A stretch of DNA of 64,000 nucleotides from an uncultured virus (IMG/VR IMGVR_UViG_3300015607_005478) (IMGVR_UViG_3300015607_005478); one strand, 5' to 3'; positions 14,673 through 36,655 are shown, counted from the stretch's first letter. A program made the numbers and translations. Notes: generated by a model from the sequence alone, not told the origin.

Positions 14673-16732
14673 TGAGCTTCGTTGGATTTGGGGCAGGCGG
14701 CGCGACAGGTCCGGCCTCGGGCCTTCGCTTTGCGCAGACGCGCGGGCGTATTCAGGGTGGCGCCCCGATGCAGGGCGTCAACTATCCGTCGCCCTTCTTC
14801 GACGTTGCTCACACGTATCTGCCGGTCACGGTCAAGCAACTCTTCAAGTGGTGCCGCTACTACTTTCTCACGAACCCGCTCATCAACGCGACGGTATTCA
14901 AGCTGAGCGAGTATCCCATCACCGACGTCATCGTTGAGCACGAAGACTCGAAGGTGCAGCGTCGTTGGAGCGAGTATCTCCACGACCATCTGCGCATCAA
15001 CCCGTTCCGCGTAGAGGTTGGACTCGACTACAACTGCTACGGCAACAGCTGCGTGAGCCTCGGCTACCCGTTCAAGAAGTTCCTCTTCTGTCGCGGCTGC
15101 AAGTTTCGCGACGAGGCCGGGAAGATTCGCTCGCAGTGGGTCTTCACGAACTTCCAGTTCCGCATGACGTGCCCGCGCTGCGGGTTCATCGGTGACGCGG
15201 TCGCGCAGGACTTCTATTACAAGAACGCGAGCGGCATCAAAACGATCCGGTGGAACCCCGAAGACATCGAGATCACGTACAACGACATCACCGGAGACTA
15301 CACGTATTTCTACACTATCCCTGCCGTCGTCCGGAATGACATCGTCATCGGCCGCAAGGACGTCGTGGAGAGCATCCCGCAAGTCTTCATCCAGGCGATG
15401 CGCGAGTCGAAAGGCGTCATCTTCTCGAAGGACAACTTCTTCCACATGCGCCGGCCGACGTTGGCGACGCAGGATCGTGGCTGGGGTACGCCGCTCCTTC
15501 TCCCGGTGCTGAAGGACACGTTCTATTTGCAGGTGATGAAGAAGGCTCAGGAGGCCATTCTCCTCGAGCACATCGTACCTCTGCGTATCCTCTTCCCGCA
15601 GGCCGGGTCCGGCTCGAGCGACCCGTACACGACCATCAACCTCGTCGATTGGCGTGACCAGATCGCCGCCGAGATTGCGCGTTGGCGCTACGACAACAAC
15701 TACATCCCGATTCTGCCCCTCCCCGTCGGTAATCAGAGCATCGGTGGTGACGGCCGAGCGCTTCTCCTCACGCAGGAGATTCAAGCGTGGAGCGAGCAGA
15801 TCATGGTCGGCATGGGCGTGCCCCGTGAGTTCCTCATGGGTGGTATGAGCTACGCCGGCACAAACGTCTCGATGCGCATGCTCGAGAACATGTTCCTCGG
15901 TTACGTGAATCGGCAGAAGCAGCTCGTGCGCTTCCTCGTGAAGCAGGTAGCTGCGTTCCTCGGCTGGCCGGAGGTGAACATCCGGTTCAAGCCATTCAAG
16001 ATGGCGGACGACTTGCAGCGCAAGGCGTACCTCTTCCAGCTCAATCAGGCGAACAAGATCTCGGACACGACTCTTCTTGCTGAGAGCGACATGTCTCAGG
16101 AAGAGGAGAACGAGGTCATGATCCGCGAGACGGACAAGCGCCTCGAAGCCACGAAGAAACAGCAGGTCGCCATGGCCCAGATTCAGGGCGAGGCACAGCT
16201 CGTCATGATGAAATACCAGGCCAAGGGTCAGCAGGAGATGCAGGCCGCGATGATGGCGCCGGCGGCGCCGGGCGAACCCGGCGGGCCCGAGTCGCAGATC
16301 GCTGGCGGCGCTCCTGGCGGTGATCAGGCCGCGCCCGGTACGGCCGGTGGCGTACAGGACCCGATGGCGGCGGGAGCAGCACTCCCTCCCGCTGGCCCGC
16401 CGTCACCGGGATCTACGCCGCAGGACTTCCTCTCGCAGGTCTCAAGCACGCTCACGGGAAGTCAGCGGATGAACGGTGGCGCGAACGGAAACGCGAACGT
16501 CGACCTTCCTTCGTTCGCGATGGCGCAGGCGCGTGCAATCGCGCAGATGACGCCGCAACAACAACAACTGGCCCTGCAGAATCTTCAGCTGCAAAGCCCC
16601 GAGCTCGCGCAGATGGTGAAGACGATGCTGTCGTCGATGCAGGGCGATCAGCCGCAACAGCAAAGTGCAGGCGTCGATATGCGTCCGCTCCCCGAGAAGC
16701 TGCCGCCGCGTCGTGCTATGCCTCTCATCTGA
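14672..16732 (+). CDS. Portal protein with Zn-ribbon insert and low-complexity tail
   Basis: Portal-like segments (YNCYGN, GWGTPLLLP, IMVGMGVPREFL..SY); size and context. Confidence 0.7.
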   Translation: MSFVGFGAGGATGPASGLRFAQTRGRIQGGAPMQGVNYPSPFFDVAHTYLPVTVKQLFKWCRYYFLTNPLINATVFKLSEYPITDVIVEHEDSKVQRRWSEYLHDHLRINPFRVEVGLDYNCYGNSCVSLGYPFKKFLFCRGCKFRDEAGKIRSQWVFTNFQFRMTCPRCGFIGDAVAQDFYYKNASGIKTIRWNPEDIEITYNDITGDYTYFYTIPAVVRNDIVIGRKDVVESIPQVFIQAMRESKGVIFSKDNFFHMRRPTLATQDRGWGTPLLLPVLKDTFYLQVMKKAQEAILLEHIVPLRILFPQAGSGSSDPYTTINLVDWRDQIAAEIARWRYDNNYIPILPLPVGNQSIGGDGRALLLTQEIQAWSEQIMVGMGVPREFLMGGMSYAGTNVSMRMLENMFLGYVNRQKQLVRFLVKQVAAFLGWPEVNIRFKPFKMADDLQRKAYLFQLNQANKISDTTLLAESDMSQEEENEVMIRETDKRLEATKKQQVAMAQIQGEAQLVMMKYQAKGQQEMQAAMMAPAAPGEPGGPESQIAGGAPGGDQAAPGTAGGVQDPMAAGAALPPAGPPSPGSTPQDFLSQVSSTLTGSQRMNGGANGNANVDLPSFAMAQARAIAQMTPQQQQLALQNLQLQSPELAQMVKTMLSSMQGDQPQQQSAGVDMRPLPEKLPPRRAMPLI

Positions 16733-21667: not shown

Positions 21668-21771
21668 GTCATGCGTCTCCTTCCATAGTTCTTATCTCTG
21701 CGTAGAAGGCTGCCTTGCCGCGCTACGGCCGCGCGAGGTACTCTGCAGCACAACCATCTGGAACCCAGACG

Positions 21772-24700
21772 ATGGCCTACCTCGACCCGAAAGAAGCTTT
21801 CGAGCACCTCCAAACCCGCGTCCTCGAAGGCATTCGGGCTCAATTCCCCATCCAGGGGAAGCAGCAGTCACTTCATCTCGAAGGCCTCGAGGTGAAAGAC
21901 GAGCTGCACCCGGACGACATCAAGGGGCAGCAAGAAGCGAAGGTGTCCGGTAAAACGTGGTCGGTGCCCGTCTACGCCAACCTCGTCCTGAAAGACAATG
22001 CAGGGAAGGTCATCGACCGGCGCCGCTGGCGCGTCGCGGAGATTCCCAAGACGACGAGCCGATACAGCTACATCGTCGGCGGTCAGGAGTATCAAGTCGA
22101 CAACCAGTGGCAACTCAAGCCCGGCGTCTATGTTCGTCGCGACGCGAGTGGTGAGCTCGAAAGCCACTTCAACGTGACGGGCAAAGGCGCCCGAGCCTTT
22201 GACGTTGTGCTCGACCCGGCAACCAAGATTTTCTCAATGCAATACGGCAAGAGCCGGGCACATATCCCGCTCTACCCGTTGCTCAAGACGCTCGGTGTTC
22301 CGGATCAAGATCTCGAACGCTCGTGGGGAAAGGAAATCCTCCAGGCGAATCAGACCGTGCGCAAGGTCGACTCTGCGCTCGAGGCTTTCTACAAAGTGAA
22401 CAAGAAGACGGCTCCGCCCGATCGCGAGACGGCAGCGCAGCACTTCTACGATACGATGGCCGCGTCGACTCTGCGCCCCGAAGCGACGCAGGTGACCATC
22501 GGCAAGCCGTTCTCGTCGGTCAGCGGCGAAACGCTGAAGCTCGCCACCGAGAAGATGTTGAAGGTTCAGGCCGGTCATCCTGAGGACGATCGTGACTCTC
22601 TCGTCTTCAAGGACCTTCGTACGACGGGTGACTTCGCGTTCGACAAGCTGCGCAACGCAGGGCGCACGATCAAGCAGAAGGCAGAACGCAAGATCAACCA
22701 GGCGAAGGATATTCGCGACATCGTGAAGTTCGATCACTTCAACGAGCCGTTGAAGGAGACGTTCACGAAGAACCCGGCTTCGCGCACGGCAACGCAGATC
22801 AATCCACTCGAGATGGTGTCGTCCGCTCTCCAGACGACGATCATGGGCGTCGGCGGCATCAAAAGCGAGCGCTCGGTTACGGATGAAGCGAAGTTCGTGA
22901 ATCCGAGTCATCTTGGATTCCTCGACCCGATCCACACCCCTGAAGGTGAGAAGACGGGTATCACTCTGCGCTTGCCCATCGGCATCAAGAAGGTCGGCAA
23001 TGAAGCGCGCATCCCGCTCTTCAACTTGAAGACTGGGCGCATCGAAGACGTGTCCGCACCCGAGTTCATGCGCGCGAACGTTGTTCTTCCCGACCAGGTT
23101 CGTTGGGAGAACGGGAAGCCGCACCCGCTCGGCGCGACCGTGCGCATGAGCGGAAGCGACAACCAGATTCGAGACGGTCACTTCAAGGACGCGCAGTATG
23201 TGATGCGTCATGCGTCGCAGCTCTTCAACATGACGTCGAACCTGATCCCGTTCCTCGGGAACACGTCCGGCAACCGCGCTTCGATGGCCAGCCGTCAGAT
23301 GGAACAGGCCATCTCTCTGGTTCATCGCGAGGCGCCTCTCGTGCAGGTCGGTACAGGTAGCACTCTGAAGGGCGCCGACACGTTCGAGAATCTGATGGGG
23401 CGCCAGACGGCACACGTCGCGCCGGTGGACGGCAAGGTCGTGGCGCTCACGCCGGATCACATCACGATTCAAGACCACGCCGGCGAGAAGCATCAGGTCA
23501 GCCTTTACAACAACTATCCGCTCAACGATGCGAAGGGCGTCATGCACTCGACGCCCCATGTCGAGGTCGGCTCTTCGGTGAAGAAGGGCGAAGTCATCGC
23601 CGACACGAACTTTTCGAAGAAGGGAACGCTCGCCCTCGGTACGAATCTCCGCGTCGCGTACGTTCCGTTCAAGGGCTACAACTTCGAAGACGGCATCGTC
23701 ATCTCGCAAAGCGCCGCAGACAAGCTCGCGAGCGAACACCTCCATAAGCCGAATCTGGATGTGGACAAGGACATGGTGCTCGATAAGCACAAGTTCCACA
23801 TGCAGCAGCCTGGCGCGTTCTCTGTCGCGCAGCTCGGGAAGCTCGATGATCGAGGCGTCATCCGTGTCGGTCAGAAGGTGAAGCCGGGAGACCCGCTCAT
23901 CGCAGCGATGAAGCCGTACAACATCAAGGACCGCACCGGCCTCGACGCGATTCGTCGGGGCATGAGCGGCGCTCACACGGACAAGAGCCTTCGCTGGGAC
24001 AGCGAGTTCGACGGCGAGGTTGTAGGCGTTCACGAAGGCAAGAACGGCCTTTCTGTTCACGTACGCACCGTCGAGCCGATGCAGATCGGCGACAAGATGG
24101 CCGGTCGATACGGCAACAAAGGCATCGTGACGATGATCCTGCCGGATCAGGAGATGCCGCACACAAAGGACGGCAAGCACATCGAGGTCGCCCTGAATCC
24201 GTCCGGTGTGCCCGGACGCATGAACGTCGGCCAAGTGCTCGAGACGGCCGCGTCGAAAATCGCGCTCAAGACGGGCAAGCCCTACATCGTGAAGAACTTC
24301 GAGCCGAACACGGACTTCTTGAAGAAGGTCCAAGCGGACATGAAGGCGCACGGGTTGAGCGACACCGAAGAGCTCCACGACCCGGTCACAAAGCAACCGC
24401 TCGGTCCGGCACTCGTCGGCCAACAACACCTCCTCAAGCTCGTTCATCAAGTTGAGAAGAAGCTCTCCGTACGTAGCGGCACGAGTACCGTCGGCGGCGC
24501 AGTGGAGCGCTACGACCAGAACCTGCAACCCACCAAGGGCGGGGGCACCGGCGGTCAAACCATCGGCACGCTCGGTCTGTACGCTCTGCTCGCGCACGGC
24601 GCGAAGGCAAACATCCGCGAGATGCAGACGTACAAGTCCGAAGGCCCGGATCCGCAGACGAACCCTGCGAAGCAGTGGCCCTCGGATCACAACCGCCTCT

Positions 24701-27700
24701 GGGCAGCGATCCAGACGGGTGGTGCATTCCCTACGCCGAAGCCGACCTTCGCCTTCCAGAAGTTCACGGACATGCTCCGCGGTGCGGGCATCAACGTCGA
24801 GAAGGACGGACACAACCACGCATTCATCCTTACGCCGTTGACGGATGATCACATCAAGTCCTTGGCGAAGAAGGAGCTGCCGAAGCCCGCCGAAGTGCTT
24901 CAGGCGAAGCTCGATAAGAACGGCGATCCCAAACCGAAGCCGGGCGGGCTCTTCGACGAGCACCTCACGGGTGGGCACGGCGGTCGGCAGTGGACGCGTA
25001 TTGGCCTCGCAGAGCCACTTCCGAATCCTGTCTTCGAGGGACCCATCCGATCGCTTACGGGCCTGAAGCAAAAGGACTTCGATGGAATCATCGGAGGATC
25101 GATCGGTGTTACTGCCAATGGCCGTCTCACACAGCCGTCGGCTGGTGTAACGGGCGGTGCCGGCATCAAGATCTTGCTCGACGGCATCAACGTAAAGCGG
25201 GACCTGCCCATCGCGGAGAACGAGCTCCGTGACGCGAAGGGACAGCAGCACGTCGATAATGCACTGAAGAAGGTGAAGTACCTTCGCGCGCTCGACCAGC
25301 TGCAGATGACGCCGTCGCAAGCGTACATCCTGCACAATCTTCCGGTCGTTCCTCCGGTGATGCGCCCGGTCAGCAAGATGCCGAGCGGCTCGCTGCGCTT
25401 CGCGGATCTCAATCAGCTCTACTCCGACTTCGCGAAGGTCAACGAGAAGCTGAAGGACCCCGTTCTCTCGAAGAACCTGACCGACGAGGGTAAGAAGAAG
25501 CTCCGCGAGGATTTCTACGATGGCGCGAAGGCCATCACCGGAATCGGCAAGAGCTACGAGCTCGCCGATCACAAGGGTTTGCTTCACGAGATCATGGGTA
25601 GCTCGCCGAAGCGCGGCTACTTCCAAGACGTGCTCGTGAATCGTCGGCAAGATCTCACGATGCGCTCGACCATCGTGCCCGAGCCCAAGCTCGGACTCGA
25701 TGAAGTCGGCCTCCCGAAGAACGCTGCGCTCGACCTCTTCCGGCCCTTCGTCATTCGCAAGTTGAAAGAGATGGGCGCCATCCAAAACGAGCTGCAGGGT
25801 CCTGCGGCAATCACGAAGCAGGGTCCGCAGGTCTGGCGCGCGCTCGACAAGGTGATGGCCGAGCGTCCCGTGCTCCTGAAGCGCGACCCCGCACTGCACA
25901 AGTACAGCGTTCAAGCCTTCCGAGCGCGCGCCTCTGAAGGCAACGCCATTCAGATTCATCCACTTGTCACGGGCGGCTTCAACGCCGACTTCGACGGAGA
26001 CACGATGAGTGTCTTTGTGCCCATCACGCGCGAGGCCGTTGCGGAAGCGCACAACATGTTCCCCTCGCGAAATCTCTTCAGCGAGGCCTCGGGCAAGGTC
26101 ATGTACCAACCGACGCTCGAATCCGCGCTCGGTCTCTACAAGCTCTCAGACGTTCGGCACAAGACCGACCGCGCGTTCACCAGCACGGACGCCGTCATCG
26201 AAGCAGCGAAGAAGGGCTCGGTGCACATCAATGACATCGTCCGCTTGCCCAGCGGCCAGACGACGCCTGGTCGTGTTCTTCTTTCGAACGCGCTGCCTGA
26301 GCCGATGAGGCCCAAGTTCCTCCACGATCTCGACTACCGCATCAACAAGAGCGGTCTGAGCTCGATGTTGCACCAGCTCGCGAAGGACCACTCCCCGCAA
26401 TTCGGAGAAGTGGTCAACAAGCTCAAAGACCTTGGCAATACAACCTCGTTCGGTGCGATCGAGGTGCCGAAGGCGACGGCCGCTGGACATCCGTTCGACT
26501 TCAAATCGTTCGACAAGACCCCGGTGGCCGTACACAACAACGCTGCGACGACGTTCATTCCTATCGGGACGCACACGCTGTCACTGAAGGACTTCGAGCC
26601 GGATCTCCAGACGCGCAATCACGTTCTCGGCCATGCCGAGAAGACGGTTGCCGGCATCTACGGAAACAACAAGCTCACGCAGGCCGAGAAAGATCGGCAG
26701 GCCATCTCGGTCTACAAGCAGGCTGAGAAGGAGATGAAAGCACTTCACGAAAAGAAGCTCGATAAGAACCCGACGAATCTCTTCACGATGTACCGTGCCG
26801 GCGTGAAACCCGATTGGACGGCGTACAAGCAGATGGTCATCGCACCGATGATCTATAAGGACTCCGCCGACCGCGAGATCCCTACGCCAGTCACGAAGAG
26901 CTACGCCGAAGGTCTCGACGTTGGTAGCTACTGGACGCAGATGCACGGCGCGCGTCGTGGCTCTGTGCTCAAGGTGCAGGAGGTTCGCGAGCCTGGTTAC
27001 ATGTCGAAGCTCTTGATGAACAACATGATGCACATGCTCGTGACCTCGCCGGATTGCGGCACGACGAAGGGTATTTCCCTCGAGGCGCATGAGCCAGACG
27101 TCCATGATCGTTATCTTCAGCAGGACTTCACGCACGGCAAGATGCACATCCCTGCAGGGACGATGCTGACGCCCGACGTCGTCGGGAAGATCCGTGCCGC
27201 AAAGAAGGATGCGCTGCTCGTCGTTCGCAGCCCGATGAAATGCGAAGAGGAGAAAGGCGTCTGCCAGAAGTGCATGGGTATCGGCGCTGAGGGCAAGCAC
27301 TACGACATCGGAACGAACATCGGTGTACAGTCGGCTCACGCTGTCGGTGAGCGTGCCGTGCAGCTCACACTCAAGAGTTTCCACACCGGCGGCGCTGATA
27401 CCGGCGGTTCGAAGGTGCTGAACTCCTTCTCGCGTTTCCAGCAGCTCATGGAGCTTCCGAAGCACATTCCGGATGAAGCTTCGCTTGCAATGGTGAGCGG
27501 CAAAGTCGAGAAGATTCAACCGACGGCCACGGGCGTCGACATCTTCATCAACGGACGCAAACATCACGTTGGACGCGATCGTTCTGGTGCGGCGCTGCAC
27601 ATCCCGGCTCCGGGCGTTCCGCTCGAGGAGCCGTGGAAGATCCCTTCGCTTGGAACAACGGTCCGCGCCGGCGATCCACTCTCCGACCCAAACCGCACTT

Positions 27701-28212
27701 ACGTGAACCCGCACCACCTCTACGCAGCGACGGGCTCGATGGAGGAAGTGCAGAATCACCTCGCTCGTGAAGTCAACGAGCTCTACAAAGGTGAGAACGT
27801 GAAGCGCCGAGCCGTCGAGACCGTCGTTCGTGCGATGGGCAACCTCACGGAAATCATCCATCCAGGAGATCACGAAACGGTTCTTCGCGGTGAATACCGC
27901 CCGCTGTCTTCGGTTCAGCGTATGAACCAAGAGCTGACGAAGCAGGGGCTTCAACCCATCGAGCACCGGCCCGTGCTGAAAGGCGTCACCGTTCTTCCTC
28001 ATGAGATCCATGAGGACTGGATGGCCAAGCTTCAGCACGACAATCTTCGCGCGACGTTGTTGGACGCTGCCGCGACGCGAGGTATCTCTCACATTCACGG
28101 AAATCACCCCATTCCGGGTGTCGCTTTCGGTGCCGAGTTCGGTCTGACCGAGAAGGACTCGCTCAAGCCCGGCCTCGGCCATCTGAAGAACGTGCCGGGA
28201 CACAGCTACTAA
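21772..28212 (+). CDS. rpoBC: Single-polypeptide beta-beta' fusion DNA-directed RNA polymerase (phage-encoded)
   Basis: Beta motifs TPEGEKTG, GYNFEDG, GDKMAGRYGNKG, NPSGVPGRMNVGQ; beta' motifs RDPALH, NADFDGD (25981-26001), GERAVQLTLKSFHTGG; all in one frame. Confidence 0.95.
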   Translation: MAYLDPKEAFEHLQTRVLEGIRAQFPIQGKQQSLHLEGLEVKDELHPDDIKGQQEAKVSGKTWSVPVYANLVLKDNAGKVIDRRRWRVAEIPKTTSRYSYIVGGQEYQVDNQWQLKPGVYVRRDASGELESHFNVTGKGARAFDVVLDPATKIFSMQYGKSRAHIPLYPLLKTLGVPDQDLERSWGKEILQANQTVRKVDSALEAFYKVNKKTAPPDRETAAQHFYDTMAASTLRPEATQVTIGKPFSSVSGETLKLATEKMLKVQAGHPEDDRDSLVFKDLRTTGDFAFDKLRNAGRTIKQKAERKINQAKDIRDIVKFDHFNEPLKETFTKNPASRTATQINPLEMVSSALQTTIMGVGGIKSERSVTDEAKFVNPSHLGFLDPIHTPEGEKTGITLRLPIGIKKVGNEARIPLFNLKTGRIEDVSAPEFMRANVVLPDQVRWENGKPHPLGATVRMSGSDNQIRDGHFKDAQYVMRHASQLFNMTSNLIPFLGNTSGNRASMASRQMEQAISLVHREAPLVQVGTGSTLKGADTFENLMGRQTAHVAPVDGKVVALTPDHITIQDHAGEKHQVSLYNNYPLNDAKGVMHSTPHVEVGSSVKKGEVIADTNFSKKGTLALGTNLRVAYVPFKGYNFEDGIVISQSAADKLASEHLHKPNLDVDKDMVLDKHKFHMQQPGAFSVAQLGKLDDRGVIRVGQKVKPGDPLIAAMKPYNIKDRTGLDAIRRGMSGAHTDKSLRWDSEFDGEVVGVHEGKNGLSVHVRTVEPMQIGDKMAGRYGNKGIVTMILPDQEMPHTKDGKHIEVALNPSGVPGRMNVGQVLETAASKIALKTGKPYIVKNFEPNTDFLKKVQADMKAHGLSDTEELHDPVTKQPLGPALVGQQHLLKLVHQVEKKLSVRSGTSTVGGAVERYDQNLQPTKGGGTGGQTIGTLGLYALLAHGAKANIREMQTYKSEGPDPQTNPAKQWPSDHNRLWAAIQTGGAFPTPKPTFAFQKFTDMLRGAGINVEKDGHNHAFILTPLTDDHIKSLAKKELPKPAEVLQAKLDKNGDPKPKPGGLFDEHLTGGHGGRQWTRIGLAEPLPNPVFEGPIRSLTGLKQKDFDGIIGGSIGVTANGRLTQPSAGVTGGAGIKILLDGINVKRDLPIAENELRDAKGQQHVDNALKKVKYLRALDQLQMTPSQAYILHNLPVVPPVMRPVSKMPSGSLRFADLNQLYSDFAKVNEKLKDPVLSKNLTDEGKKKLREDFYDGAKAITGIGKSYELADHKGLLHEIMGSSPKRGYFQDVLVNRRQDLTMRSTIVPEPKLGLDEVGLPKNAALDLFRPFVIRKLKEMGAIQNELQGPAAITKQGPQVWRALDKVMAERPVLLKRDPALHKYSVQAFRARASEGNAIQIHPLVTGGFNADFDGDTMSVFVPITREAVAEAHNMFPSRNLFSEASGKVMYQPTLESALGLYKLSDVRHKTDRAFTSTDAVIEAAKKGSVHINDIVRLPSGQTTPGRVLLSNALPEPMRPKFLHDLDYRINKSGLSSMLHQLAKDHSPQFGEVVNKLKDLGNTTSFGAIEVPKATAAGHPFDFKSFDKTPVAVHNNAATTFIPIGTHTLSLKDFEPDLQTRNHVLGHAEKTVAGIYGNNKLTQAEKDRQAISVYKQAEKEMKALHEKKLDKNPTNLFTMYRAGVKPDWTAYKQMVIAPMIYKDSADREIPTPVTKSYAEGLDVGSYWTQMHGARRGSVLKVQEVREPGYMSKLLMNNMMHMLVTSPDCGTTKGISLEAHEPDVHDRYLQQDFTHGKMHIPAGTMLTPDVVGKIRAAKKDALLVVRSPMKCEEEKGVCQKCMGIGAEGKHYDIGTNIGVQSAHAVGERAVQLTLKSFHTGGADTGGSKVLNSFSRFQQLMELPKHIPDEASLAMVSGKVEKIQPTATGVDIFINGRKHHVGRDRSGAALHIPAPGVPLEEPWKIPSLGTTVRAGDPLSDPNRTYVNPHHLYAATGSMEEVQNHLAREVNELYKGENVKRRAVETVVRAMGNLTEIIHPGDHETVLRGEYRPLSSVQRMNQELTKQGLQPIEHRPVLKGVTVLPHEIHEDWMAKLQHDNLRATLLDAAATRGISHIHGNHPIPGVAFGAEFGLTEKDSLKPGLGHLKNVPGHSY

Positions 28213-29448
28213 ATGTCCAGCAAGTTCCGATCGTCGTTCACGCACAAGGAGGGAACAGACCCGGCCGAGGTCGTTCAGGGCCGCGTTGTGAATGTGAACG
28301 TGAAGAAGTGGACGGTCGACGTCATCGCGCAGTTCGATCGCAAGCGCTACTTCAACATTCAAGTCGGCAGTCCATACATGCATCACTCGAACGGTGAAGG
28401 CATCTACGCGGTGCCCGAAGTTGGAGCGACGTGCATGGTCTGCATCCCCTCGGATAGCTCGCCGATGTTCATCATGTCCTTCATTATGGCTCACGAGCTC
28501 GTTGACGACGCGTCTGACGATGCGCCGCAGGGAACGAACTCGCACGGCGGCGCCGTGCCGAATGCAACGGATGCATCTTTCGCCGGCGGGCGACCGAAGG
28601 CGATTCCCGGCAGCATCTATCTCCGCACACGCGATGGGAATTTTGTGGCGCTGCACCGCGGCGGCGTTCTACAGCTCGGCGCAACCGAGCTCGCGCAGCG
28701 CATCTATATCCCGCTCGGCAACCTCATCACGGACATCAGCGAGAACTACGAACACCACAACGCGTCTGGCTCCATCAAGTGGGGAATCCAAGACGGGCCC
28801 TCGAAGGACAAGCTGCCGGCGCAATGGCAGCAGACCTTTCGTGTCTTCGCTGCCGATAAGTACGCCGACGTGAAGGTTGCGTGTGGGCGAGTCTTTGCAC
28901 CCGTTCCCGAGCCCGACGGTGGAACAACCCTCGCGGAAGCAGGAGTGGGACAGGGCTCCGACAATCCGATCATCTTCGAGGTCTCGGTCAGCCCCAAAGG
29001 CTTCGTTGCCGAGAGCGGCGAGGTCGTCGATGCGAGCACTGTAAAGAACTCGGTGATGAAGTTCACCTTCGACCGCAAGGGCAACTTGCTTCATCGTGCC
29101 GAAGGCAACGTCGTCTTTCAGTTCAAGAAGAAGCTCACCATCAAGGTGACCGAAGATGTTGACCTGCAGACGGGTGGTGGGGCAAGGATCACCGCCAAGA
29201 ACGGCTTCGACATCAACGGTGGAGCCTACACGCACGTCAAAGGCGACGTTGTTCGACTACAACAAGGACAATTGCCTCTCGCGCGACTCGGGGATGTAGT
29301 AACTATTCCCTTGGTGGGAGCGCCGATCTTTCTGACCTTTGATTCTCCGCCCATTCCGCATACACCGATCGCGTGCACGATCACCACGCTGCCAGGTCCG
29401 GCGCTTTCGGGCACCATCGCTTCGGGTAATTCCAAACTCCTCGGATGA
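28213..29448 (+). CDS. Baseplate spike (gpV/gp5-like)
   Basis: N-terminal OB-like region (GIYAVPEVGA.C.V), beta-repeat region, C-terminal LARLGD. Confidence 0.65.
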   Translation: MSSKFRSSFTHKEGTDPAEVVQGRVVNVNVKKWTVDVIAQFDRKRYFNIQVGSPYMHHSNGEGIYAVPEVGATCMVCIPSDSSPMFIMSFIMAHELVDDASDDAPQGTNSHGGAVPNATDASFAGGRPKAIPGSIYLRTRDGNFVALHRGGVLQLGATELAQRIYIPLGNLITDISENYEHHNASGSIKWGIQDGPSKDKLPAQWQQTFRVFAADKYADVKVACGRVFAPVPEPDGGTTLAEAGVGQGSDNPIIFEVSVSPKGFVAESGEVVDASTVKNSVMKFTFDRKGNLLHRAEGNVVFQFKKKLTIKVTEDVDLQTGGGARITAKNGFDINGGAYTHVKGDVVRLQQGQLPLARLGDVVTIPLVGAPIFLTFDSPPIPHTPIACTITTLPGPALSGTIASGNSKLLG

Positions 29449-30074
29449 GCACTGTTCTTGTTGGGTCCTACACGCTTGGTGGCGTGAACGTCGCCTTGAA
29501 TGGCGCCGTCGTTCTTGTAGTGCCCCTGCTAACGCAGGTGGATCTGATGCTCACGGGACCCTTCGGACTTGGTGCCGTGCAGGCAGATCTCGCCGCGCAG
29601 CTCAACGCCGCGCTCGCAGCGCAGGCGCAGGTTGCCATCTCCGTGTCGAATCCCATCGCCGCGCTGAAGGCACAACTGCAGGCTATGTTGTCGGTGCAGG
29701 CTGGTATTGCAGCGTCGCTGTCTCTCGGTCTTCCACCCGTGGTTGTGAACGTGAGCGCCTCCCTCGCAATCAGCGCCGCGCTCGCCCTAAAGCTGGGAGG
29801 CATCCGTCTTCTCATTCAGCTCGTTCTGCAATTGAAGCTTCCGCTCGTGAACCTTCTTGCGGGACTCAACCTAAGCGCGGGCCCGTTCGTCCTCATGTCG
29901 ATTGGCTTTGCAGGTCCGAGCACGCTTCTGAGCTCGACGGCCGAATACACCGCGCTCGCCGCCGGTGGCGTGGGCGGCATTCTTCCGACCGACCAAGTCT
30001 ACGGCGTCACAATTCTCACCAAGAGCCCGGCGGCTTCTCTCGCCCTGGCTGGGGTGATTAGAACGACCCCTTGA
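29445..30074 (+). CDS. Hydrophobic Ala/Leu-rich protein, probably baseplate-associated
   Basis: Coupled to the spike gene. Confidence 0.55.
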   Translation: MSTVLVGSYTLGGVNVALNGAVVLVVPLLTQVDLMLTGPFGLGAVQADLAAQLNAALAAQAQVAISVSNPIAALKAQLQAMLSVQAGIAASLSLGLPPVVVNVSASLAISAALALKLGGIRLLIQLVLQLKLPLVNLLAGLNLSAGPFVLMSIGFAGPSTLLSSTAEYTALAAGGVGGILPTDQVYGVTILTKSPAASLALAGVIRTTP

Positions 30075-30594
30075 GATGTTTCCGGAGATTGGTCGTGAGC
30101 AGCTCCAGCTCCGCGAGCGAAGCATCGTTCTTTACAGCATTAGCTCGATGCGAAATGACCCAGATGTTCCCCTTCACATAACCGAGGGCGGGAATCATTC
30201 TGTCCAATGTGGGAGACGCCGGCCCCACCTTCCCCTTGCCTGCCGCTAGAGGAACGCCGAGTAGCGGACACTTCTTCGGGATTACGATATCCGCCGGCTT
30301 GATATCGAATGGGAGGTTCAGCCGCGTGGCGCGCAAGCGCGCATGTCTCCAGAGACGTAAGCCAGGATAGCGTTCGTGCGATCGACGCTCGTACTCCTTG
30401 TATTGCTCGGGACGCGCATCGCGATACGCAGCCGATCGAGCCAAGATCGTCTTCTTGTTTTTCTTGTAGTGGTTTGCCGCCCATTGCTTCTGACAAGGCT
30501 TACACCACTTCTGCAGACCATCTTTCTCGGCGCGATTAGTCCCAAACGGCCCCGGTCCACCACACTTACTGCACTTCTTCTTGGCGCTCTTCAT
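30058..30594 (-). CDS. Free-standing HNH-like endonuclease
   Basis: CSKC..CKPC, CPLLG, TLDR..PALGYVKGNIWVISHRAN. Confidence 0.75.
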   Translation of the reverse strand: MKSAKKKCSKCGGPGPFGTNRAEKDGLQKWCKPCQKQWAANHYKKNKKTILARSAAYRDARPEQYKEYERRSHERYPGLRLWRHARLRATRLNLPFDIKPADIVIPKKCPLLGVPLAAGKGKVGPASPTLDRMIPALGYVKGNIWVISHRANAVKNDASLAELELLTTNLRKHLKGSF

Positions 30595-30610
30595 TGCTAC
30601 GCTGCCCGAG

Positions 30611-32644
30611 ATGGCCACGACTCAGCCCCTCTTCTTCACGCCCGATGTGCAGTTCGAGAAATCAGCCGCGGAGGTCATGCTGCCGGAGGACCCCAATCGG
30701 TGGCCCAACGAGCTTATGCAGGAATTGTATAAGCAAGTACCATTTGTAGCTGATTTTGAGCCTCACGTCACCATGGATCGCGTCGACGCCGAGAAGGGCT
30801 ACGGCCTTGGCAATATCGAGGTCCAGAACAAGACCGAGATTCAGCACGGTGCTGATGAGGCCGGAAAGATGAACGCGGGCGTGAAGAGCGTGCGCATTCC
30901 GGTCATCATCTCCAATCGCAAGCTTCAACCACTCGACCTCATCGTCACGGGTGATTCGAAGACGCTGCCGCTTACGGAGGCCCGTCTTCGTGCAGCCATC
31001 TTTCGTCCGCAGGTCTTCGACATCACCGGTCGCGGACCCGGCGATATGTCGATGATCGGTCAGCTCTACCCCCCGTACCGCCAGAACTACGGCTTCGGTG
31101 GCGGCGGCGCGACGATGAACGTCGGGATGGGCAAAGAGGGCTCGAAAGCTTCGCTCCTCGTAGCCATCATGCCGACGGTCAATGAGCGTGACTACAACGC
31201 CTTCTTCCAGAAGGTCGCGAGTGATCGTGGGCTGCAGGCGCAGCTGGCGACGAACGGTGCGTGCTCGGAGGCTCTGAAGTCTCTCGCGTCCTACGAACCC
31301 GTTGGCGCCGCCAAGCTCGCCGAGGCGGCGCTTTCGAACATCGTTCCGTCCGTCGTCCAGCTCTCGAAAGAGGTTGAGGGTTACTCGATCAAGAGCGCGT
31401 CGCACGCGTGCTGGTTGCCCAAGACCGAGCTCGTCAACCGTGGTGACGCCGTGCGTCTTTTCGGTGCGAAGGTCGTTCTCGCTGCCGACCAGACGGGCGC
31501 CGTGACGATGTCCAACGGCGAGAGCGTTCAGGAAGAGAAGCAGCAGAATCCCGAAGCGGACAAGCCCGAGCCCATCACGCAGTTCGGCATCTACAAGGTG
31601 CAGAACAAGGAAGGGCAGGAGCTGATCGGGTACGTCTTCACCAACCTCATCGACATCGACGGCAAGGCACTGCCGATCGCGCTCTTCACGAACGGCAGCC
31701 AGAAGGCCGTTCAGGGCGATATCGTCGGTATCAACGTCGGCGGCGGCGCGAGCCTTTTCGAAGGACCTCCGCGCGGTACCGGTTGCTTTTACCATCTGCT
31801 TTCCAACGGGCGCGCGCAGGCGACCGTGCCGATGACGCTCAACGCATCGATGGACGTTGAGGGTCACGGTGCAACGACGATGCACGGCCAGACGTACGAT
31901 GGCACGCCCGTCGTGGTCTCCGTTCAGCCGAACATTCAGGAGTGCACGTTTGTCGACGGCACGCTCCTCGTTCCAGAGTCGTACTCCTGGTTGCCGCTCG
32001 ACACTGCGGAGGATACGCAGCTCGTTGAAGCACCGGAGGGATGGAACGCGCCGCAGGAAGCGAAGCAGGCATTCGCGACCGTCGAGCTCCGACACGCGGG
32101 CGAGGGCACCTTCTCTATTCGCGGCTTCGCGGTCGACAAGGTCGCGAGCGCGGAGCGCGAGTTCATGTCACTCGACGAGACGATGTTCCTTCTCGGCGGG
32201 CTCGGCGTGGACTTCAAGTATGCGCAGGAGAAGATCGGTGAGGCCGCTGCATGGAGCCGGCCGGTCAGTGTGCGCGTGGGACGCTACATCAAGACGGCGG
32301 CAGACGCCGTGGCGGAGTCGCGGGTGAAAGCAGCGTCGGTGATGGCGCTCTTCCAGGATCTCATCCCTGCACTCCGCAAGGACCTCCTCAAGGAGGCGGC
32401 GGTTATTCCGGACCCGACGGCCGTGGACACGGTCCTCTCGTTGGGCTTCTTGAACCCCGAGAATCTCGGCACGTTCATCTCGTACCTCCCGGTCCTCGAT
32501 GAGGGCCAGGCGAAGCTCTGTGAGCTTCTTCTTGCATCTCGCCTCGGTATGCGGGAAGTTTCTTCAGGCGCTCTCGAGAAGGCCATCCGCTCGACGGAGG
32601 AGGCTATCGAAGGACTCAAAGTTTTGGCCTTCCAGAAACAATAG
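30611..32644 (+). CDS. Probable virion structural protein with K-x-A motifs
   Basis: Leaderless start after TGnTACGCT; EKSAA, KVAS, KTAA, KEAA motifs. Confidence 0.65.
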   Translation: MATTQPLFFTPDVQFEKSAAEVMLPEDPNRWPNELMQELYKQVPFVADFEPHVTMDRVDAEKGYGLGNIEVQNKTEIQHGADEAGKMNAGVKSVRIPVIISNRKLQPLDLIVTGDSKTLPLTEARLRAAIFRPQVFDITGRGPGDMSMIGQLYPPYRQNYGFGGGGATMNVGMGKEGSKASLLVAIMPTVNERDYNAFFQKVASDRGLQAQLATNGACSEALKSLASYEPVGAAKLAEAALSNIVPSVVQLSKEVEGYSIKSASHACWLPKTELVNRGDAVRLFGAKVVLAADQTGAVTMSNGESVQEEKQQNPEADKPEPITQFGIYKVQNKEGQELIGYVFTNLIDIDGKALPIALFTNGSQKAVQGDIVGINVGGGASLFEGPPRGTGCFYHLLSNGRAQATVPMTLNASMDVEGHGATTMHGQTYDGTPVVVSVQPNIQECTFVDGTLLVPESYSWLPLDTAEDTQLVEAPEGWNAPQEAKQAFATVELRHAGEGTFSIRGFAVDKVASAEREFMSLDETMFLLGGLGVDFKYAQEKIGEAAAWSRPVSVRVGRYIKTAADAVAESRVKAASVMALFQDLIPALRKDLLKEAAVIPDPTAVDTVLSLGFLNPENLGTFISYLPVLDEGQAKLCELLLASRLGMREVSSGALEKAIRSTEEAIEGLKVLAFQKQ

Positions 32645-32675
32645 CTAAGAGACGGGGCCCTTGCGGGCCCCTCTT
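32645..32675. terminator. Bidirectional terminator
   Basis: GGGGCCC-TTGC-GGGCCCC between convergent genes. Confidence 0.7.
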
Positions 32676-33106: not shown

Positions 33107-33151
33107 GTGCACCTCCTCGTTGTTCTTGTGCCCGTTTCATGCCTAGTATTG

Positions 33152-34783: not shown

Positions 34784-36655
34784 GTGAACGTTGCTCCTAA
34801 TCCTGTTTACCAGAAACCGCCGGGCTCGCCGCCGCCCTTTGCGGATGGTGAGCTCGAGGAGCTCGAACGCGAACTGACCGACGAAGAGCTCTATCTCGCT
34901 GAAGAAGGCGAGTACTGGCTGCCGCCCGACTTCGAGCCATTCCCGGATGCGTACACGTTCGAGGAGGACGATCAGGCGCAGATCACCGTTCCGCCGAAAG
35001 TGCTGCCTTCGCAGTTCACCGAGGCAGCCTTCCGGATGCCGAACAAGGACGGCATCTTCGAGCCGTTCTCCTTCAACGGCCGGCGCCACATGCGGCGCAT
35101 CTACGACACGCCAGCGAAGCGCATCCTCCTTTTCTGCGGCCGTCAGGTTGAGAAGAGCACGTTGCTCGGCAATCGGATGCTGACGTACTCGTGCATGATC
35201 CCGGCGTTCAAGTCGCTCTACGTCTCGCCCTCAGCGACACAGACGAAGACGTTCTCGATTGACCGCATCAAAGAGCCGCTCGAAACCAGCGACGTGCTCC
35301 GTGGCTTCACCACGACCGCACTTCAGCAGAACGTCTTCGAGAAGCAGTTCATCAATCGCGCGAAGATCACTCTTCGGTATGCCTTCCTCAACGCCGATCG
35401 AACCCGCGGCATCCCGGCATGGCAGCTTCTCCTCGACGAGCTCCAGGACATCCTCGGCGACAACATCCCCGTCATCGAGCAGTGCACGGCCCACGCACCA
35501 GAGGAATGGAAGTCCTTCGTCTATGCCGGTACGCCGAAGGGCCTAGACAACATCATCGAGTTCTATCGGAGCGGCACCGCCAAGGGTCGCCCGATGTCGA
35601 CGATGGGCGAGTGGGTCGTTCCCTGCGACCGCTGTGGGTCGTCCGCCGGCGCGGGCCGTTTCTGGAATGTCCTCGGCGAGAAGAACATCCAGAAGAAGGG
35701 TCTCTCCTGCGAGCGCTGCAAGCAGCCCATCAATCCCATGCACGACGACGCGCAGTGGGCGATGATGCAGGAGGCGGGGATCTACGAGAGCTATCGCATC
35801 CCGCAGCTGATGGTCCCATGGCGATCGTGGGACGAGATCATGCTCGACTACGCGCGCTACGAGCGCGCGCGGTTCTACAACGAGGTTCTCGGCATCTCGT
35901 ACGACTCCGGGCTTCGACCGCTTACGCGGCAGCAGGTTCGTGAGTGCTGCAGCGATGACATCTCGATGCATCCGTCGCACCTCGAGAAGTACCGAGCGAT
36001 GTCTGCCGGTACGCCTATCTTCGCAGGCATCGACTGGGGTACAGGCGAGAACACGTTCACGGTCCTTTCGCTCGGTTGCTACGTGAACTCGAAGTTCCGC
36101 ATCTTCTTCGTGCACCGTTTCACCGGTGAGGACGTTGACCCGCCGGCGCAGCTCGAAAAGATCGACCAGATGCTCTCGTACTTCAATGTACGAATCATCG
36201 CGACGGACTATGGTGGTGGCTTCGACCGCAACGACCACCTGGTTCGCAAGTTCGGCCCGAAGCGCCTGCACAAGTACCAATACATGGCGCGCGGCAAGAA
36301 GAAGATTGCTTGGAACCCGATGTACCGCCGCTGGCAGCTCACGCGCACGGAAGTGATGAGCGACATCTTCAACGCCATCAAGCGAAAGCAGGTCGAGCTT
36401 CCGCGCTGGGCCGAGTTCGAAGACCCCTACGCGAATGACTGCCTCAATATCTTCAGCGAGTACAACGAGACGCTTCGTATGGTGCAATACGGCCATCGAC
36501 CGGATCGCCCCGACGACACGTTCCATTCCATCCTTTACTGCCTGCTCGGCTCGATGATCATGTTCCCGCGGCCGGATATCCTCGTGCCTGTTCGCGAGCA
36601 CAAAGGGCAGGGGCCTCTCGTGACGTCGTATCGTGGGCCTGTTGACCAGGGCTAA
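34784..36655 (+). CDS. terL: Terminase large subunit, GpA-like
   Basis: CGRQVEKST Walker A, LLLDE Walker B, GTP coupling motif, AGIDWG and PDDTFH nuclease motifs. Confidence 0.9.
   Translation: MNVAPNPVYQKPPGSPPPFADGELEELERELTDEELYLAEEGEYWLPPDFEPFPDAYTFEEDDQAQITVPPKVLPSQFTEAAFRMPNKDGIFEPFSFNGRRHMRRIYDTPAKRILLFCGRQVEKSTLLGNRMLTYSCMIPAFKSLYVSPSATQTKTFSIDRIKEPLETSDVLRGFTTTALQQNVFEKQFINRAKITLRYAFLNADRTRGIPAWQLLLDELQDILGDNIPVIEQCTAHAPEEWKSFVYAGTPKGLDNIIEFYRSGTAKGRPMSTMGEWVVPCDRCGSSAGAGRFWNVLGEKNIQKKGLSCERCKQPINPMHDDAQWAMMQEAGIYESYRIPQLMVPWRSWDEIMLDYARYERARFYNEVLGISYDSGLRPLTRQQVRECCSDDISMHPSHLEKYRAMSAGTPIFAGIDWGTGENTFTVLSLGCYVNSKFRIFFVHRFTGEDVDPPAQLEKIDQMLSYFNVRIIATDYGGGFDRNDHLVRKFGPKRLHKYQYMARGKKKIAWNPMYRRWQLTRTEVMSDIFNAIKRKQVELPRWAEFEDPYANDCLNIFSEYNETLRMVQYGHRPDRPDDTFHSILYCLLGSMIMFPRPDILVPVREHKGQGPLVTSYRGPVDQG

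What the first reader, a model, noticed from the sequence alone, without database searches (positions are those of the whole stretch)
21772..28212. Compact single-chain beta-beta' RNA polymerase in a structural operon
Seen in sequence: all beta and beta' catalytic motifs lie in one 2146-aa ORF, shorter than a typical bacterial beta plus beta'. The beta' N-terminal Zn-binding cysteines are missing (GGLFDEHLTGGHGGRQWTRI), while the second Zn site (DCGT...KC...VCQKC) is kept. No alpha or sigma gene is recognisable in the window. The stop (28212) abuts the baseplate spike start (28213). Established knowledge: some tailed phages encode cellular-like multisubunit RNAPs, and phiKZ-type enzymes are split. 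Inference: a late-made, possibly virion-packaged, alpha-independent enzyme.
Basis: partly seen in the sequence, partly recalled or inferred. Interest (0 to 1): 0.8.

Follow-up and report, generated by a model that had tools for sequence, protein, structure and literature searches.

The report
Single-chain phage RNA polymerase beside portal
A large uncultured phage encodes both big subunits of a bacterial-type RNA polymerase as one protein, lacking one zinc finger, in its virion-gene block, and it probably works with the phage's own sigma factor.

Summary
Window 21772-28212 (+) is one 2146-aa ORF. It joins a complete bacterial-type beta to a beta' with no linker. All catalytic motifs are intact. 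The beta' N-terminal zinc-binding domain is deleted and the second zinc site is kept.

It is not a host capture. It is about 27% identical to Salmonella and S. aureus beta/beta', which share 55-59% with each other. It belongs to a very large uncultured phage clade in which every complete copy is fused. The cultured relatives, Salmonella phage Arash and Vibrio phage D69, split the same enzyme in two.

Near-complete relatives carry one RNAP gene, no alpha or omega, and a conserved ~250-aa sigma. That sigma is the orthologue of Arash gp10, and it lies outside this 64-kb window. So the enzyme is probably alpha-less but not sigma-less.

The order portal, RNAP, spike-like protein, then TerL further on is conserved across the clade. 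Arash virion mass spectrometry found the RNAP and sigma in abundance. Packaging is therefore plausible but unproven.

Four literature searches aimed at this architecture found no description of it. The published mReC phages all have separate genes (0 of 104 fused). This scan has found the same family before on six other genomes.

Verdict: a new variant of a known kind.

The parts
21772..28212 (+). Fused beta-beta' RNA polymerase ORF (2146 aa, P0001)
   Evidence: full-length fused homologues.
21772..24813 (+). Beta module (residues 1-1014). It runs through the equivalent of the very C-terminus of bacterial beta (GINVEKDGH, 1006-1014).
   Evidence: Pfam Rpb2_3 and Rpb2_6. PDB beta chains match, 8syi_C at 8.8e-78. 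Alignment to Salmonella and S. aureus RpoB.
22777..22848 (+). Equivalent of the rifampicin-binding stretch of beta. By alignment, Q513R, D516T, H526S, R529Q and S531T in Salmonella numbering.
   Evidence: That these positions govern rifampicin binding is recalled knowledge.
24088..24123 (+). Beta catalytic loop GDKMAGRYGNKG (residues 773-784). Relatives carry an intein here.
24787..24843 (+). Beta/beta' junction. The end of beta runs directly into the equivalent of beta' residue ~16, with no linker. The first ~15 beta' residues are absent.
   Evidence: Alignments. In the AF2 model of residues 870-1345, model residues 144-420 superpose on E. coli beta' 16-345 at Z 22-23, rmsd 2.6-3.0 A over 250-266 residues.
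24943..25002 (+). Scar of the deleted beta' zinc-binding domain (GGLFDEHLTGGHGGRQWTRI, residues 1058-1077)
25405..25527 (+). Beta' clamp helices (residues 1212-1252), the sigma region 2 docking site. It is retained, but the sigma70-contact positions are changed (R275V, E295K, A302F).
   Evidence: Alignment and helices in the model. In a same-genome relative pair this region is the modelled interface with the phage sigma. The identity of the contact residues is recalled.
25981..26001 (+). Beta' Mg-binding motif NADFDGD (residues 1404-1410). Relatives carry an intein at about 1410-1412.
27052..27273 (+). Second beta' zinc site: DCGT (1761-1764) and KCEEEKGVCQKC (1823-1834)
21691..21746 (.). Conserved boxes in the divergent intergenic region upstream of the RNAP gene: CTTAT (21691-21695), CTTGC (21714-21718) and GGTACTCTGC (21737-21746)
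   Evidence: In a 12-sequence alignment, CTT.T and TTGC are invariant and the remaining letter of each box is nearly invariant (at least 90%). Read leftward, CAAG-N(14-22)-SATAAG occurs 3 times against 0.73 expected. The GGTAC box is unique in the window. Function not shown.
14672..16732 (+). Portal-like protein (686 aa). It directly precedes the RNAP gene in distant relatives and in Arash and D69.
   Evidence: phrog_16240 portal, E 1.3e-6. tblastn matches Arash gp204, which is annotated as portal.
28213..29448 (+). Central-spike-like protein (411 aa). Its start abuts the RNAP stop.
   Evidence: conserved downstream of the RNAP in 22 of 22 loci.
29445..30074 (+). Conserved 209-aa protein of unknown function; its start overlaps the spike gene's stop by 4 bases
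   Evidence: (matched in 14 of 22 loci).
30581..32644 (+). Conserved 687-aa protein of unknown function in the same block
   Evidence: 22 of 22 loci.
34784..36655 (+). Large terminase, at the far end of the conserved block
   Evidence: phrog_675 at 1e-52; PF05876.

Best explanation
The ORF encodes a catalytically intact, single-chain bacterial-type RNA polymerase core of a ~170-200-kb contractile-tailed phage clade.

Shown: beta is fused head-to-tail to beta' at the natural ends of the two subunits, which lie next to each other in the clamp. The active-site motifs and the second zinc site are intact. The beta' zinc-binding domain is deleted.

Inferred from relatives: the phage supplies no alpha or omega, has only this one RNAP, and supplies its own sigma-70-family factor (the Arash gp10 family). 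That sigma docks on the retained but re-surfaced clamp helices, so the enzyme reads phage-specific promoters and not host ones. The covalent link probably replaces the alpha-dimer scaffold that normally brings beta and beta' together.

Inferred from gene order and from Arash proteomics: the gene is expressed with the portal, spike and head genes, and the enzyme, probably with sigma, is carried in the particle to start transcription of the injected DNA. The changed rifampicin pocket predicts insensitivity to rifampicin.

My odds: active fused RNAP 0.95; uses the phage sigma 0.75; needs no alpha 0.6; virion-packaged 0.5.
For: Fusion and motifs.

Junction: the fold is confident across it and superposes on the bacterial beta' clamp at Z 22-23.

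The fusion is conserved. In 50 of 70 IMG/VR loci the longest ORF is a single 2061-2217-aa frame. The other 20 are longer (2517-3008 aa; 6 of these were examined and all carry inteins) or are cut by contig ends. The best 120 clusters are 56-74% identical and 1952-2913 aa long, with 106 of them 2119-2171 aa. All of the best 150 representatives at 50% clustering score E<1e-156.

One RNAP gene per genome in 5 of 5 near-complete relatives.

Alpha and omega: PF01000 0 of 5, PF01193 0 of 5, PF01192 0 of 5 over the cut-off, while the same searches hit all 14 control genomes.

Sigma: a ~250-aa family is present in 7 of 8 records. Its profile hits RpoD at 5.8e-13. Pfam finds Sigma70_r3 in 7 of 7 and r4 in 4 of 7. 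It is the orthologue of Arash gp10 at 1.7e-38.

Complex model: a same-genome clamp plus sigma pair scored 0.87, with the best control at 0.48. That mark was reached by 116 of 157 solved complexes and 2 of 215 mismatched pairs. The runs agree in at least 35% of contacts and the partner's pLDDT is at least 74. The interface is the clamp helices against sigma residues 63-78 and 108-116. Holoenzyme structures are solved, so this pass may reflect likeness only.

Gene order: portal, RNAP, spike, then TerL further on in 22 of 22 loci. The portal directly precedes the RNAP in the 7 distant loci and in Arash and D69.

Arash virions (passages read, PMC10585845): gp206 was the most detected protein at 3516 spectra, gp216 had 1210, and sigma gp10 had 467 with 100% coverage.
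Against: No experiment exists on any fused member.

The Arash 'virion' sample held 116 proteins, including ribonucleotide reductases, kinases and a NAMPT. The authors themselves offer carry-over of abundant proteins as an alternative. Spectral counts above the major capsid protein are hard to square with a packaged enzyme.

Arash is only 33% identical, and its enzyme is split.

This window holds no sigma gene, and its full genome was not available. The closest large relative, G001, which is 91% complete, showed no sigma in three searches.

Recruitment of host alpha or omega cannot be excluded from sequence.

No promoter class shared between the RNAP gene and other virion genes was found.

The flap-tip helix is only partly conserved.

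The complex model used a relative's proteins, not this window's.
Confidence: 0.55

Rival explanations
1. The enzyme is a non-packaged, intracellular phage RNA polymerase. The host RNAP reads the early genes. The fused enzyme, with phage sigma factors, then takes over middle and late transcription. Its position beside the portal gene is historical, and its presence in Arash particle preparations is carry-over.
For: The Arash preparation contained 116 of 272 proteins, many of them metabolic, and the authors note the carry-over alternative. There is only one RNAP gene per genome, so the enzyme must in any case work inside the cell. Three of 5 relatives carry a second sigma-type gene, which fits temporal switching.
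Against: The position between the portal and spike genes is kept over the whole clade, down to 38% identity, and in Arash and D69. Other phage RNAPs examined sit in DNA-metabolism modules instead (Carin-5, YerA41). The RNAP and sigma are among the most detected proteins in Arash particles. No sigma70-consensus promoter was found in 16-35 kb, against 3.7 expected, though this is weak evidence in a 60% GC genome.
Confidence: 0.35
2. The enzyme still needs host alpha, and perhaps omega, to assemble or to respond to activators. The fusion only tethers the large subunits, as in cellular RpoBC fusions.
For: The beta and beta' bodies are otherwise bacterial in architecture, and the clamp superposes at Z 22-23. 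Cellular fused RpoBC enzymes (Helicobacter, Wolbachia) still use alpha; this is recalled and was not tested here.
Against: No alpha or omega gene was found in 5 near-complete relatives. The clade is diverse: members are about 40% identical to each other and about 27% to bacterial subunits, so conserved docking of many different hosts' alpha is not expected. The phiKZ and AR9 enzymes work without alpha (statement read in PMC13282480).
Confidence: 0.25
3. The gene is a recent capture of a host rpoB-rpoC pair, or of a cellular fused rpoBC. It would then be a passenger with no dedicated phage role.
For: Bacterial beta' and beta are the best solved-structure matches, at E 2e-95 and 9e-78. One 2045-aa homologue is recorded in a 13.6-Mb Pendulispora rubella genome.
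Against: Identity to Salmonella and S. aureus subunits is 25.6-27.4%, while those two share 54.6-59.0%. The three bacteria form a clade at 100 SH-aLRT, apart from the fused group. All of the top 150 representatives are members of the phage family. Fusion, zinc-domain loss and gene position are conserved across a clade more diverse than the Firmicutes-Proteobacteria pair sampled.
Confidence: 0.03

Closest known systems
RNA polymerase of Salmonella phage Arash (gp206 + gp216, with sigma gp10; PMC10585845) and of Vibrio phages D69, D148 and D181
   Same: They are homologous over the whole length, at 33% identity over residues 3-1492. Beta is already fused to the N-terminal half of beta'. The gene follows the portal gene. 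The same sigma family is present. Genome size and tail type are similar.
   Different: In these phages the enzyme is split into two genes at about residue 1492/1498, separated by 2-9 other genes. The window's enzyme is one chain. Only Arash has any experimental data, namely virion mass spectrometry.
mReC phages (multimeric RNAP-encoding Caudovirales; Weinheimer and Aylward 2020, PMC7481178); Cobetia phage Carin-5 and Yersinia phage YerA41 have the same separate-gene layout
   Same: These are tailed phages from metagenomes with recognisably bacterial-like beta and beta' that form lineages apart from cellular enzymes (Results section read).
   Different: Beta and beta' are separate proteins in 104 of 104 rows of their table, the longest being 1563 aa. 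Their MCP and TerL families (PF07068, PF03237) were not found in the window, whose TerL hits PF05876. In Carin-5 and YerA41 the RNAP genes lie among DNA-metabolism genes, not beside the portal.
phiKZ- and AR9-type jumbo-phage multisubunit RNAPs (virion and non-virion sets)
   Same: Both are phage-encoded two-barrel RNAPs without alpha or omega. One phiKZ set is packaged and injected (read in PMC7824862 and PMC13282480).
   Different: Those enzymes are split into 4-5 polypeptides, come in two paralogous sets, are far more diverged, and have no sigma-70-family factor. This clade has one gene, one copy per genome and a true sigma-family partner.
Cellular fused RpoBC of Helicobacter and Wolbachia, and engineered E. 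coli beta-beta' fusions (recalled; no sequence fetched here)
   Same: They show the same end-to-end beta to beta' fusion, made possible because the beta C-terminus and the beta' N-terminus lie close together.
   Different: By recall, the cellular fusions are much longer (about 2900 aa), keep the zinc-binding domain, and work with alpha, omega and host sigma. A search for papers linking such fusions to phages found none.
Single-chain two-barrel phage RNAPs: crAss-like gp66, YonO, and the P23-45 tape-measure-fused RNAP
   Same: Each has both barrels in one polypeptide, and the crAss and P23-45 enzymes are virion-borne (abstracts seen).
   Different: Those enzymes have almost no sequence similarity to beta or beta'; PMC7481178 says this of crAss. 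They also lack the bacterial accessory domains. This enzyme matches bacterial subunits at E 1e-95 over nearly their whole length.

Membership tests
Bacterial-type multisubunit RNAP catalytic core (beta + beta') | Beta' double-psi barrel with the NADFDGD magnesium site | tested here: met
   Residues 1404-1410; conserved in 8 of 8 clade members aligned. Pfam Rpb1_2 at 2.9e-27.
Bacterial-type multisubunit RNAP catalytic core (beta + beta') | Beta barrel with the two catalytic lysines (GDKxAGRHGNKG) | tested here: met
   GDKMAGRYGNKG at 773-784. Pfam Rpb2_6 at 2.7e-58.
Bacterial-type multisubunit RNAP catalytic core (beta + beta') | Bridge helix and trigger loop (beta' domain 5) | tested here: met
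   Pfam Rpb1_5 over residues 1714-2034. The stretches at 1726-1757 and 1858-1875 resemble the bacterial elements; their names are recalled.
Bacterial-type multisubunit RNAP catalytic core (beta + beta') | Beta' N-terminal zinc-binding domain (four cysteines) | tested here: not met
   A 32-residue gap in 8 of 8 aligned sequences, and a cysteine-free scar in all 44 relatives printed.
Bacterial-type multisubunit RNAP catalytic core (beta + beta') | Second beta' zinc site (C814, C888, C895, C898) | tested here: met
   present in 8 of 8.
Bacterial-type multisubunit RNAP catalytic core (beta + beta') | Assembly on an alpha dimer, with omega | tested here: inconclusive
   No alpha or omega gene in 5 near-complete relatives or in the window. 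Use of host alpha cannot be tested from sequence.
Bacterial-type multisubunit RNAP catalytic core (beta + beta') | Sigma-70-family initiation factor docking on the beta' clamp helices | tested here: inconclusive
   The clamp helices are present. A sigma family is present in 7 of 8 relatives. The complex model of a relative's pair scored 0.87, with the best control at 0.48; that mark was reached by 116 of 157 solved complexes and 2 of 215 mismatched pairs. No sigma gene lies in this window.
Arash/D69-type phage RNAP | Homology over the full length, including the beta to beta'-N fusion | tested here: met
   33% identity over query residues 3-1492, plus gp216 and D69_264 matching up to residue 2124.
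Arash/D69-type phage RNAP | Beta' split into two genes | tested here: not met
   The window ORF is continuous, as are 50 of 70 related loci.
Arash/D69-type phage RNAP | Gene placed directly downstream of the portal gene | tested here: met
   The order is the same. In the window a leftward 4-gene block is inserted between the portal and RNAP genes; that block is absent in the 7 distant relatives, Arash and D69.
Arash/D69-type phage RNAP | Presence in virions | not testable with these tools
   Only the Arash mass spectrometry exists.
mReC phage RNAP (PMC7481178) | Separate beta and beta' genes | tested here: not met
   0 of 104 table rows are fused; the window is fused.
mReC phage RNAP (PMC7481178) | MCP of PF07068 and TerL of PF03237 | tested here: not met
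   Neither family was found among 62 window ORFs at E<=0.01. The window's TerL hits PF05876.
phiKZ/AR9-type split RNAP | Four to five polypeptides, two paralogous sets, no sigma-family factor | tested here: not met
   One ORF, one copy per genome in 5 of 5 relatives, and a sigma family present.
crAss gp66 / YonO-type single-chain RNAP | Minimal two-barrel enzyme without recognisable similarity to beta or beta' profiles | tested here: not met
   Four Pfam beta/beta' domains score above their cut-offs, and PDB matches reach 1e-95.

The most novel reading that the evidence does not exclude
The phage carries a ready-made, self-sufficient holoenzyme in its particle: one 236-kDa chain plus its own sigma. 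The same single enzyme, re-aimed by further phage sigma factors, transcribes every temporal class. Infection would then be independent of host RNA polymerase and insensitive to rifampicin from the first minute. On this reading, fusing beta to beta' and losing the zinc finger, alpha and omega are adaptations. They would let a bacterial-type core be delivered through the tail as one polypeptide and refold without an assembly scaffold. This would be the simplest natural bacterial-type RNAP known.
Probability: 0.3. Interest if true: 0.8.

Novelty: new variant of a known kind. Interest (0 to 1): 0.6.

Why it matters
Known phage-encoded cellular-type RNAPs are either shattered into many subunits (phiKZ, AR9), have separate beta and beta' genes (mReC), or are so diverged that they barely resemble beta and beta' (crAss, YonO).

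This clade takes a different route. It has a near-complete bacterial core in one chain, with a true sigma-family partner and no alpha or omega genes in the 5 relatives searched. All of the best 150 representatives at 50% clustering belong to it.

If the enzyme is active alone with its sigma, it would give:
- a natural test of what the alpha scaffold and the beta' zinc finger are for;
- a compact orthogonal sigma-dependent transcription system;
- a second, independent case of a virion-delivered cellular-type RNAP.

Cultured relatives exist (Arash, D69), so these questions can be tested directly.

Tried and rejected
- Whole genome of the window: none is held, so the sigma gene of this very phage could not be sought.
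- Sigma in the window: none found by Pfam or tblastn. One apparent 'sigma' hit in a relative (L081) was an HNH endonuclease with an HTH domain. It matches window 47368-47826 and was rejected.
- Promoters: the GGTACTCTGC box upstream of the RNAP gene is not repeated elsewhere (67 two-mismatch matches against 53 expected). CTTGC-N(16-24)-GTACNNT occurs once against 0.41 expected. Whole-window 9-mer counting returned only coding-bias words. No promoter class could be assigned to the RNAP gene.
- Host: the genome-contig scan found only a 2-kb contig of a Myxococcota MAG at 36% identity. That is too little to name a host.
- Phylogeny: the quick beta' tree had 24 rows and only 3 bacteria, with no archaeal or eukaryotic outgroup. 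It left the placement of Arash/D69 and support for the fused group weak (59). Carin-5 and YerA41 sat on very long branches. It cannot date or root the clade.
- Expression: no RNA holder is listed among public runs.
- phmmer against PDB did not align the junction and N-terminal beta' stretch. A profile alignment and a fold were needed instead.
- tRNA and Rfam scans of the window found nothing.

Full report
THE OBSERVATION

Window 21772-28212 (+) is a single open frame of 2146 codons. An upstream TTG at 21715 is possible, but homologues align from the ATG at 21772.

Pfam finds beta domains (Rpb2_3 at 340-401, Rpb2_6 at 552-903) followed by beta' domains. Rpb1_2 (1291-1429) and Rpb1_5 (1714-2034) score above their cut-offs. 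Rpb1_1 and Rpb1_3 score below theirs.

Against solved structures, the best matches are bacterial beta' (M. smegmatis 5tw1_D, E 2.4e-95) and beta (8syi_C, E 8.8e-78).

The window is from a contractile-tailed phage. It encodes a UvsX-like recombinase, a Cas4-type exonuclease, RusA, a helicase, a portal-like protein, the large terminase, a major head protein and a tail sheath.

ANATOMY OF THE ENZYME

I aligned the protein and 15 clade members with Salmonella and S. aureus RpoB and RpoC. Those bacterial sequences came from contigs filed among phage records.

- The beta part runs to the very end of bacterial beta: GINVEKDGH at 1006-1014 aligns with the last residues of RpoB.
- The next residues align with beta' from about residue 16. 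So there is no linker, and the first ~15 beta' residues are missing.
- An AlphaFold model of residues 870-1345, built from 42 sequences, has mean pLDDT 71.6. Most of model residues 120-410 score above 85.
- Model residues 144-420 superpose on E. coli beta' 16-345 at Z 22-23, rmsd 2.6-3.0 A over 250-266 residues.

The catalytic motifs are intact: GDKMAGRYGNKG (773-784) and NADFDGD (1404-1410). So is the second zinc site (DCGT, then KC...GVCQKC).

The N-terminal zinc-binding domain (Salmonella 68-99) is deleted in 8 of 8 aligned members. The cysteine-free scar appears in all 44 distinct relatives printed.

The clamp helices are present. Three positions that I recall as sigma70 contacts are changed: R275V, E295K and A302F. 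The flap-tip helix is only partly kept. The rifampicin-pocket positions are changed: Q513R, D516T, H526S, R529Q and S531T.

Compared with S. aureus, the missing segments are beta 1-18, 208-227, 273-363 and 1151-1180, and beta' 66-97, 550-565 and 591-624 (numbered along the S. aureus open frames). These account for the small size.

THE FAMILY

The fusion is not peculiar to this window.

- The 120 best 90%-identity clusters are 56-74% identical. Of these, 106 are 2119-2171 aa long. Eleven are longer (2472-2913 aa), nine of them carrying an intein-type endonuclease domain. Three are shorter (1952-2045 aa). They sit on contigs of up to 200 kb.
- A scan of IMG/VR gave 70 loci at 33-71% identity. 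In 50 of them the longest ORF is a single frame of 2061-2217 aa. The other 20 are longer (2517-3008 aa; the 6 examined all carry inteins) or are cut by contig ends.
- An exhaustive search of 1.84 billion representatives with the beta' half returned 150 best hits, all at E<1e-156. Most are fused or intein-bearing, the longest being 4739 aa.
- The inteins sit at about residue 398, at about 777 (the beta catalytic loop) and at about 1410-1412 (the NADFDGD motif).

The cultured relatives are Salmonella phage Arash and Vibrio phages D69, D148 and D181, at about 33% identity. They carry the same enzyme split at about residue 1492/1498 into a 1525-aa and a 606-aa protein.

NOT A HOST CAPTURE

P0001 is 25.6-27.4% identical to Salmonella and S. 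aureus beta and beta'. Those two bacteria share 54.6-59.0%. Distant members of the clade are about 41% identical to P0001.

In a quick maximum-likelihood tree of 24 beta' sequences, the three bacteria form a clade (100 SH-aLRT) and the 16 fused sequences lie on one side of a branch (support 59). The placement of Arash and D69 is unresolved. With three bacteria and no outgroup, the tree says no more than that.

WHAT THE ENZYME WORKS WITH

No whole genome is held for the window, so I searched near-complete records of relatives.

- Alpha: PF01000 0 of 5 and PF01193 0 of 5.
- Omega: PF01192 0 of 5 over the cut-off. All three of these searches hit all 14 control genomes.
- RNAP copies: each of 5 records has a single RNAP gene.
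- Sigma: PF04542 hits 3 of 5 records. A separate, conserved ~250-aa protein occurs in 7 of 8 records.

The profile of that ~250-aa protein matches RpoD at 5.8e-13. Pfam finds sigma region 3 in 7 of 7 members and region 4 in 4 of 7. It is the orthologue of Arash gp10, which is annotated as a sigma factor, at E 1.7e-38, and of a D69 protein.

In relatives this sigma gene lies 75-85 kb from the RNAP gene. That explains why the 64-kb window has none.

A complex prediction used the clamp segment and the sigma from one relative genome. It scored 0.87, with the best control at 0.48. That mark was reached by 116 of 157 solved complexes and 2 of 215 mismatched pairs. The runs agree in at least 35% of contacts and the partner's pLDDT is at least 74. 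The interface is the clamp helices against sigma residues 63-78 and 108-116. Bacterial holoenzymes are solved, so this pass may only reflect likeness.

GENE CONTEXT

The order portal-like, RNAP, 411-aa, 687-aa, 450-aa, TerL is kept in 22 of 22 fused loci examined. The 209-aa gene matched in 14 of them and the 153-aa gene in 15.

A leftward block lies between the portal and RNAP genes in the 15 closer loci. It holds a DUF2201/VWA protein, an AAA ATPase and two small genes. In the 7 distant loci, and in Arash and D69, the portal gene directly precedes the RNAP gene.

The 411-aa gene starts at the base after the RNAP stop. Its model (pLDDT 65.8) matches central spikes of contractile systems (7aef_q, 4s37, 3qr8, VgrG) with high Foldseek probability but low TM-scores.

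Other phage RNAPs I looked at (Carin-5, YerA41) lie among DNA-metabolism genes.

In Arash virion mass spectrometry, gp206 was the most detected protein (3516 spectra), gp216 had 1210, and sigma gp10 had 467. However, 116 proteins were detected, metabolic enzymes among them, and the authors allow for carry-over (passages read).

PROMOTERS

In the 12 sequences aligned, the intergenic region upstream of the RNAP gene carries the boxes CTTAT and CTTGC. CTT.T and TTGC are invariant, and the remaining letter of each box is nearly invariant. Read leftward, they resemble a bipartite promoter for the divergent genes.

A GGTAC(T/G)CTGC box 30-45 nt before the start codon is seen in at least five of the closest relatives aligned and weakens in the others. 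It is not repeated elsewhere in the window.

No sigma70-consensus promoter is found in 16-35 kb, against 3.7 expected. I could not assign a promoter class or an expression time.

LITERATURE

- Weinheimer and Aylward 2020 (PMC7481178; Results section, term passages and one supplementary table read) describe phages with beta and beta'. All 104 table rows list separate proteins, and the text mentions fusion only for crAss.
- Iyer et al. 2021 (PMC7824862; passages read) and the 2026 jumbo-phage review (PMC13282480; passages read) do not describe a fused bacterial-type enzyme.
- Four searches aimed at this architecture found no paper on it.
- Earlier agents of this scan reported the same family on six other genomes. 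I reached the same reading before seeing those notes, and I re-tested the zinc-domain loss, the sigma partner, the spike neighbour and the inteins here.

VERDICT

The enzyme is a new architectural variant of phage-encoded cellular-type RNAPs. It is probably alpha-less and dependent on a phage sigma. It is plausibly virion-borne, but that has not been demonstrated.

Noticed in passing
window 21691-21746: The boxes CTTAT and CTTGC sit upstream of the RNAP gene in the 12 relatives aligned; CTT.T and TTGC are invariant and the remaining letter of each box is nearly invariant. On the other strand they read CAAGG-N16-GATAAG, a candidate leftward promoter. A second such site lies at 11263-11286 (-), at another divergent junction.
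   Followed up: partly
window 17740-21536 (-): A leftward block holds a DUF2201 metallopeptidase/VWA protein, an AAA (MoxR-like) ATPase and two small genes. It is inserted between the portal and RNAP genes. It is present in the 15 closer relatives and absent in the 7 distant ones, Arash and D69.
   Followed up: partly
window 30058-30618 (-); also 47302-47838 and 56071-57303 (+): An endonuclease VII/HNH-type gene lies antisense inside the RNAP-spike block and has no counterpart in 22 relatives, so it is probably a homing endonuclease insertion. Two further HNH genes lie among the head and tail genes.
   Followed up: partly
relatives L018, L025, L030, L042, L045, L068: Inteins interrupt the fused RNAP at about residues 398, 777 (beta catalytic loop) and 1410-1412 (NADFDGD). 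Up to two occur per gene in these six, and database members reach 4739 aa. The Arash/D69 split point (1492/1498) is not one of these sites.
   Followed up: partly
P0091; L090: A 2045-aa homologue at 60% identity is recorded in a 13.6-Mb Pendulispora rubella (Myxococcota) genome. A 36%-identical fragment sits on a 2-kb contig of a Myxococcota MAG. This is a possible host lead or an integrated copy; the context could not be fetched.
   Followed up: no
L073, L074, L075 (relatives G003, G002, G004): Three of 5 near-complete relatives encode a second sigma-type protein (397, 185 and 192 aa, with PF04542 hits) besides the gp10-family sigma. This suggests several sigma factors for one core enzyme.
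   Followed up: partly
window 5670-6193: A 524-bp stretch has no called ORF and contains GC-rich hairpins followed by T runs. No tRNA or Rfam family was found there.
   Followed up: partly
window 61710-62648 (-) and 7426-8289 (-): A papain-family (C1) cysteine peptidase and a uracil-DNA-glycosylase-superfamily protein are encoded by the phage.
   Followed up: no
window 16000-35000: No sigma70-consensus promoter was found, against 3.7 +/- 1.8 expected from shuffles.
   Followed up: no
window 21500-29500: Near-identical DNA (0.90 of the sampled words) is held by a wastewater metagenome run of a second, independent study (X5). Four runs of another study may be the source of this DNA.
   Followed up: no
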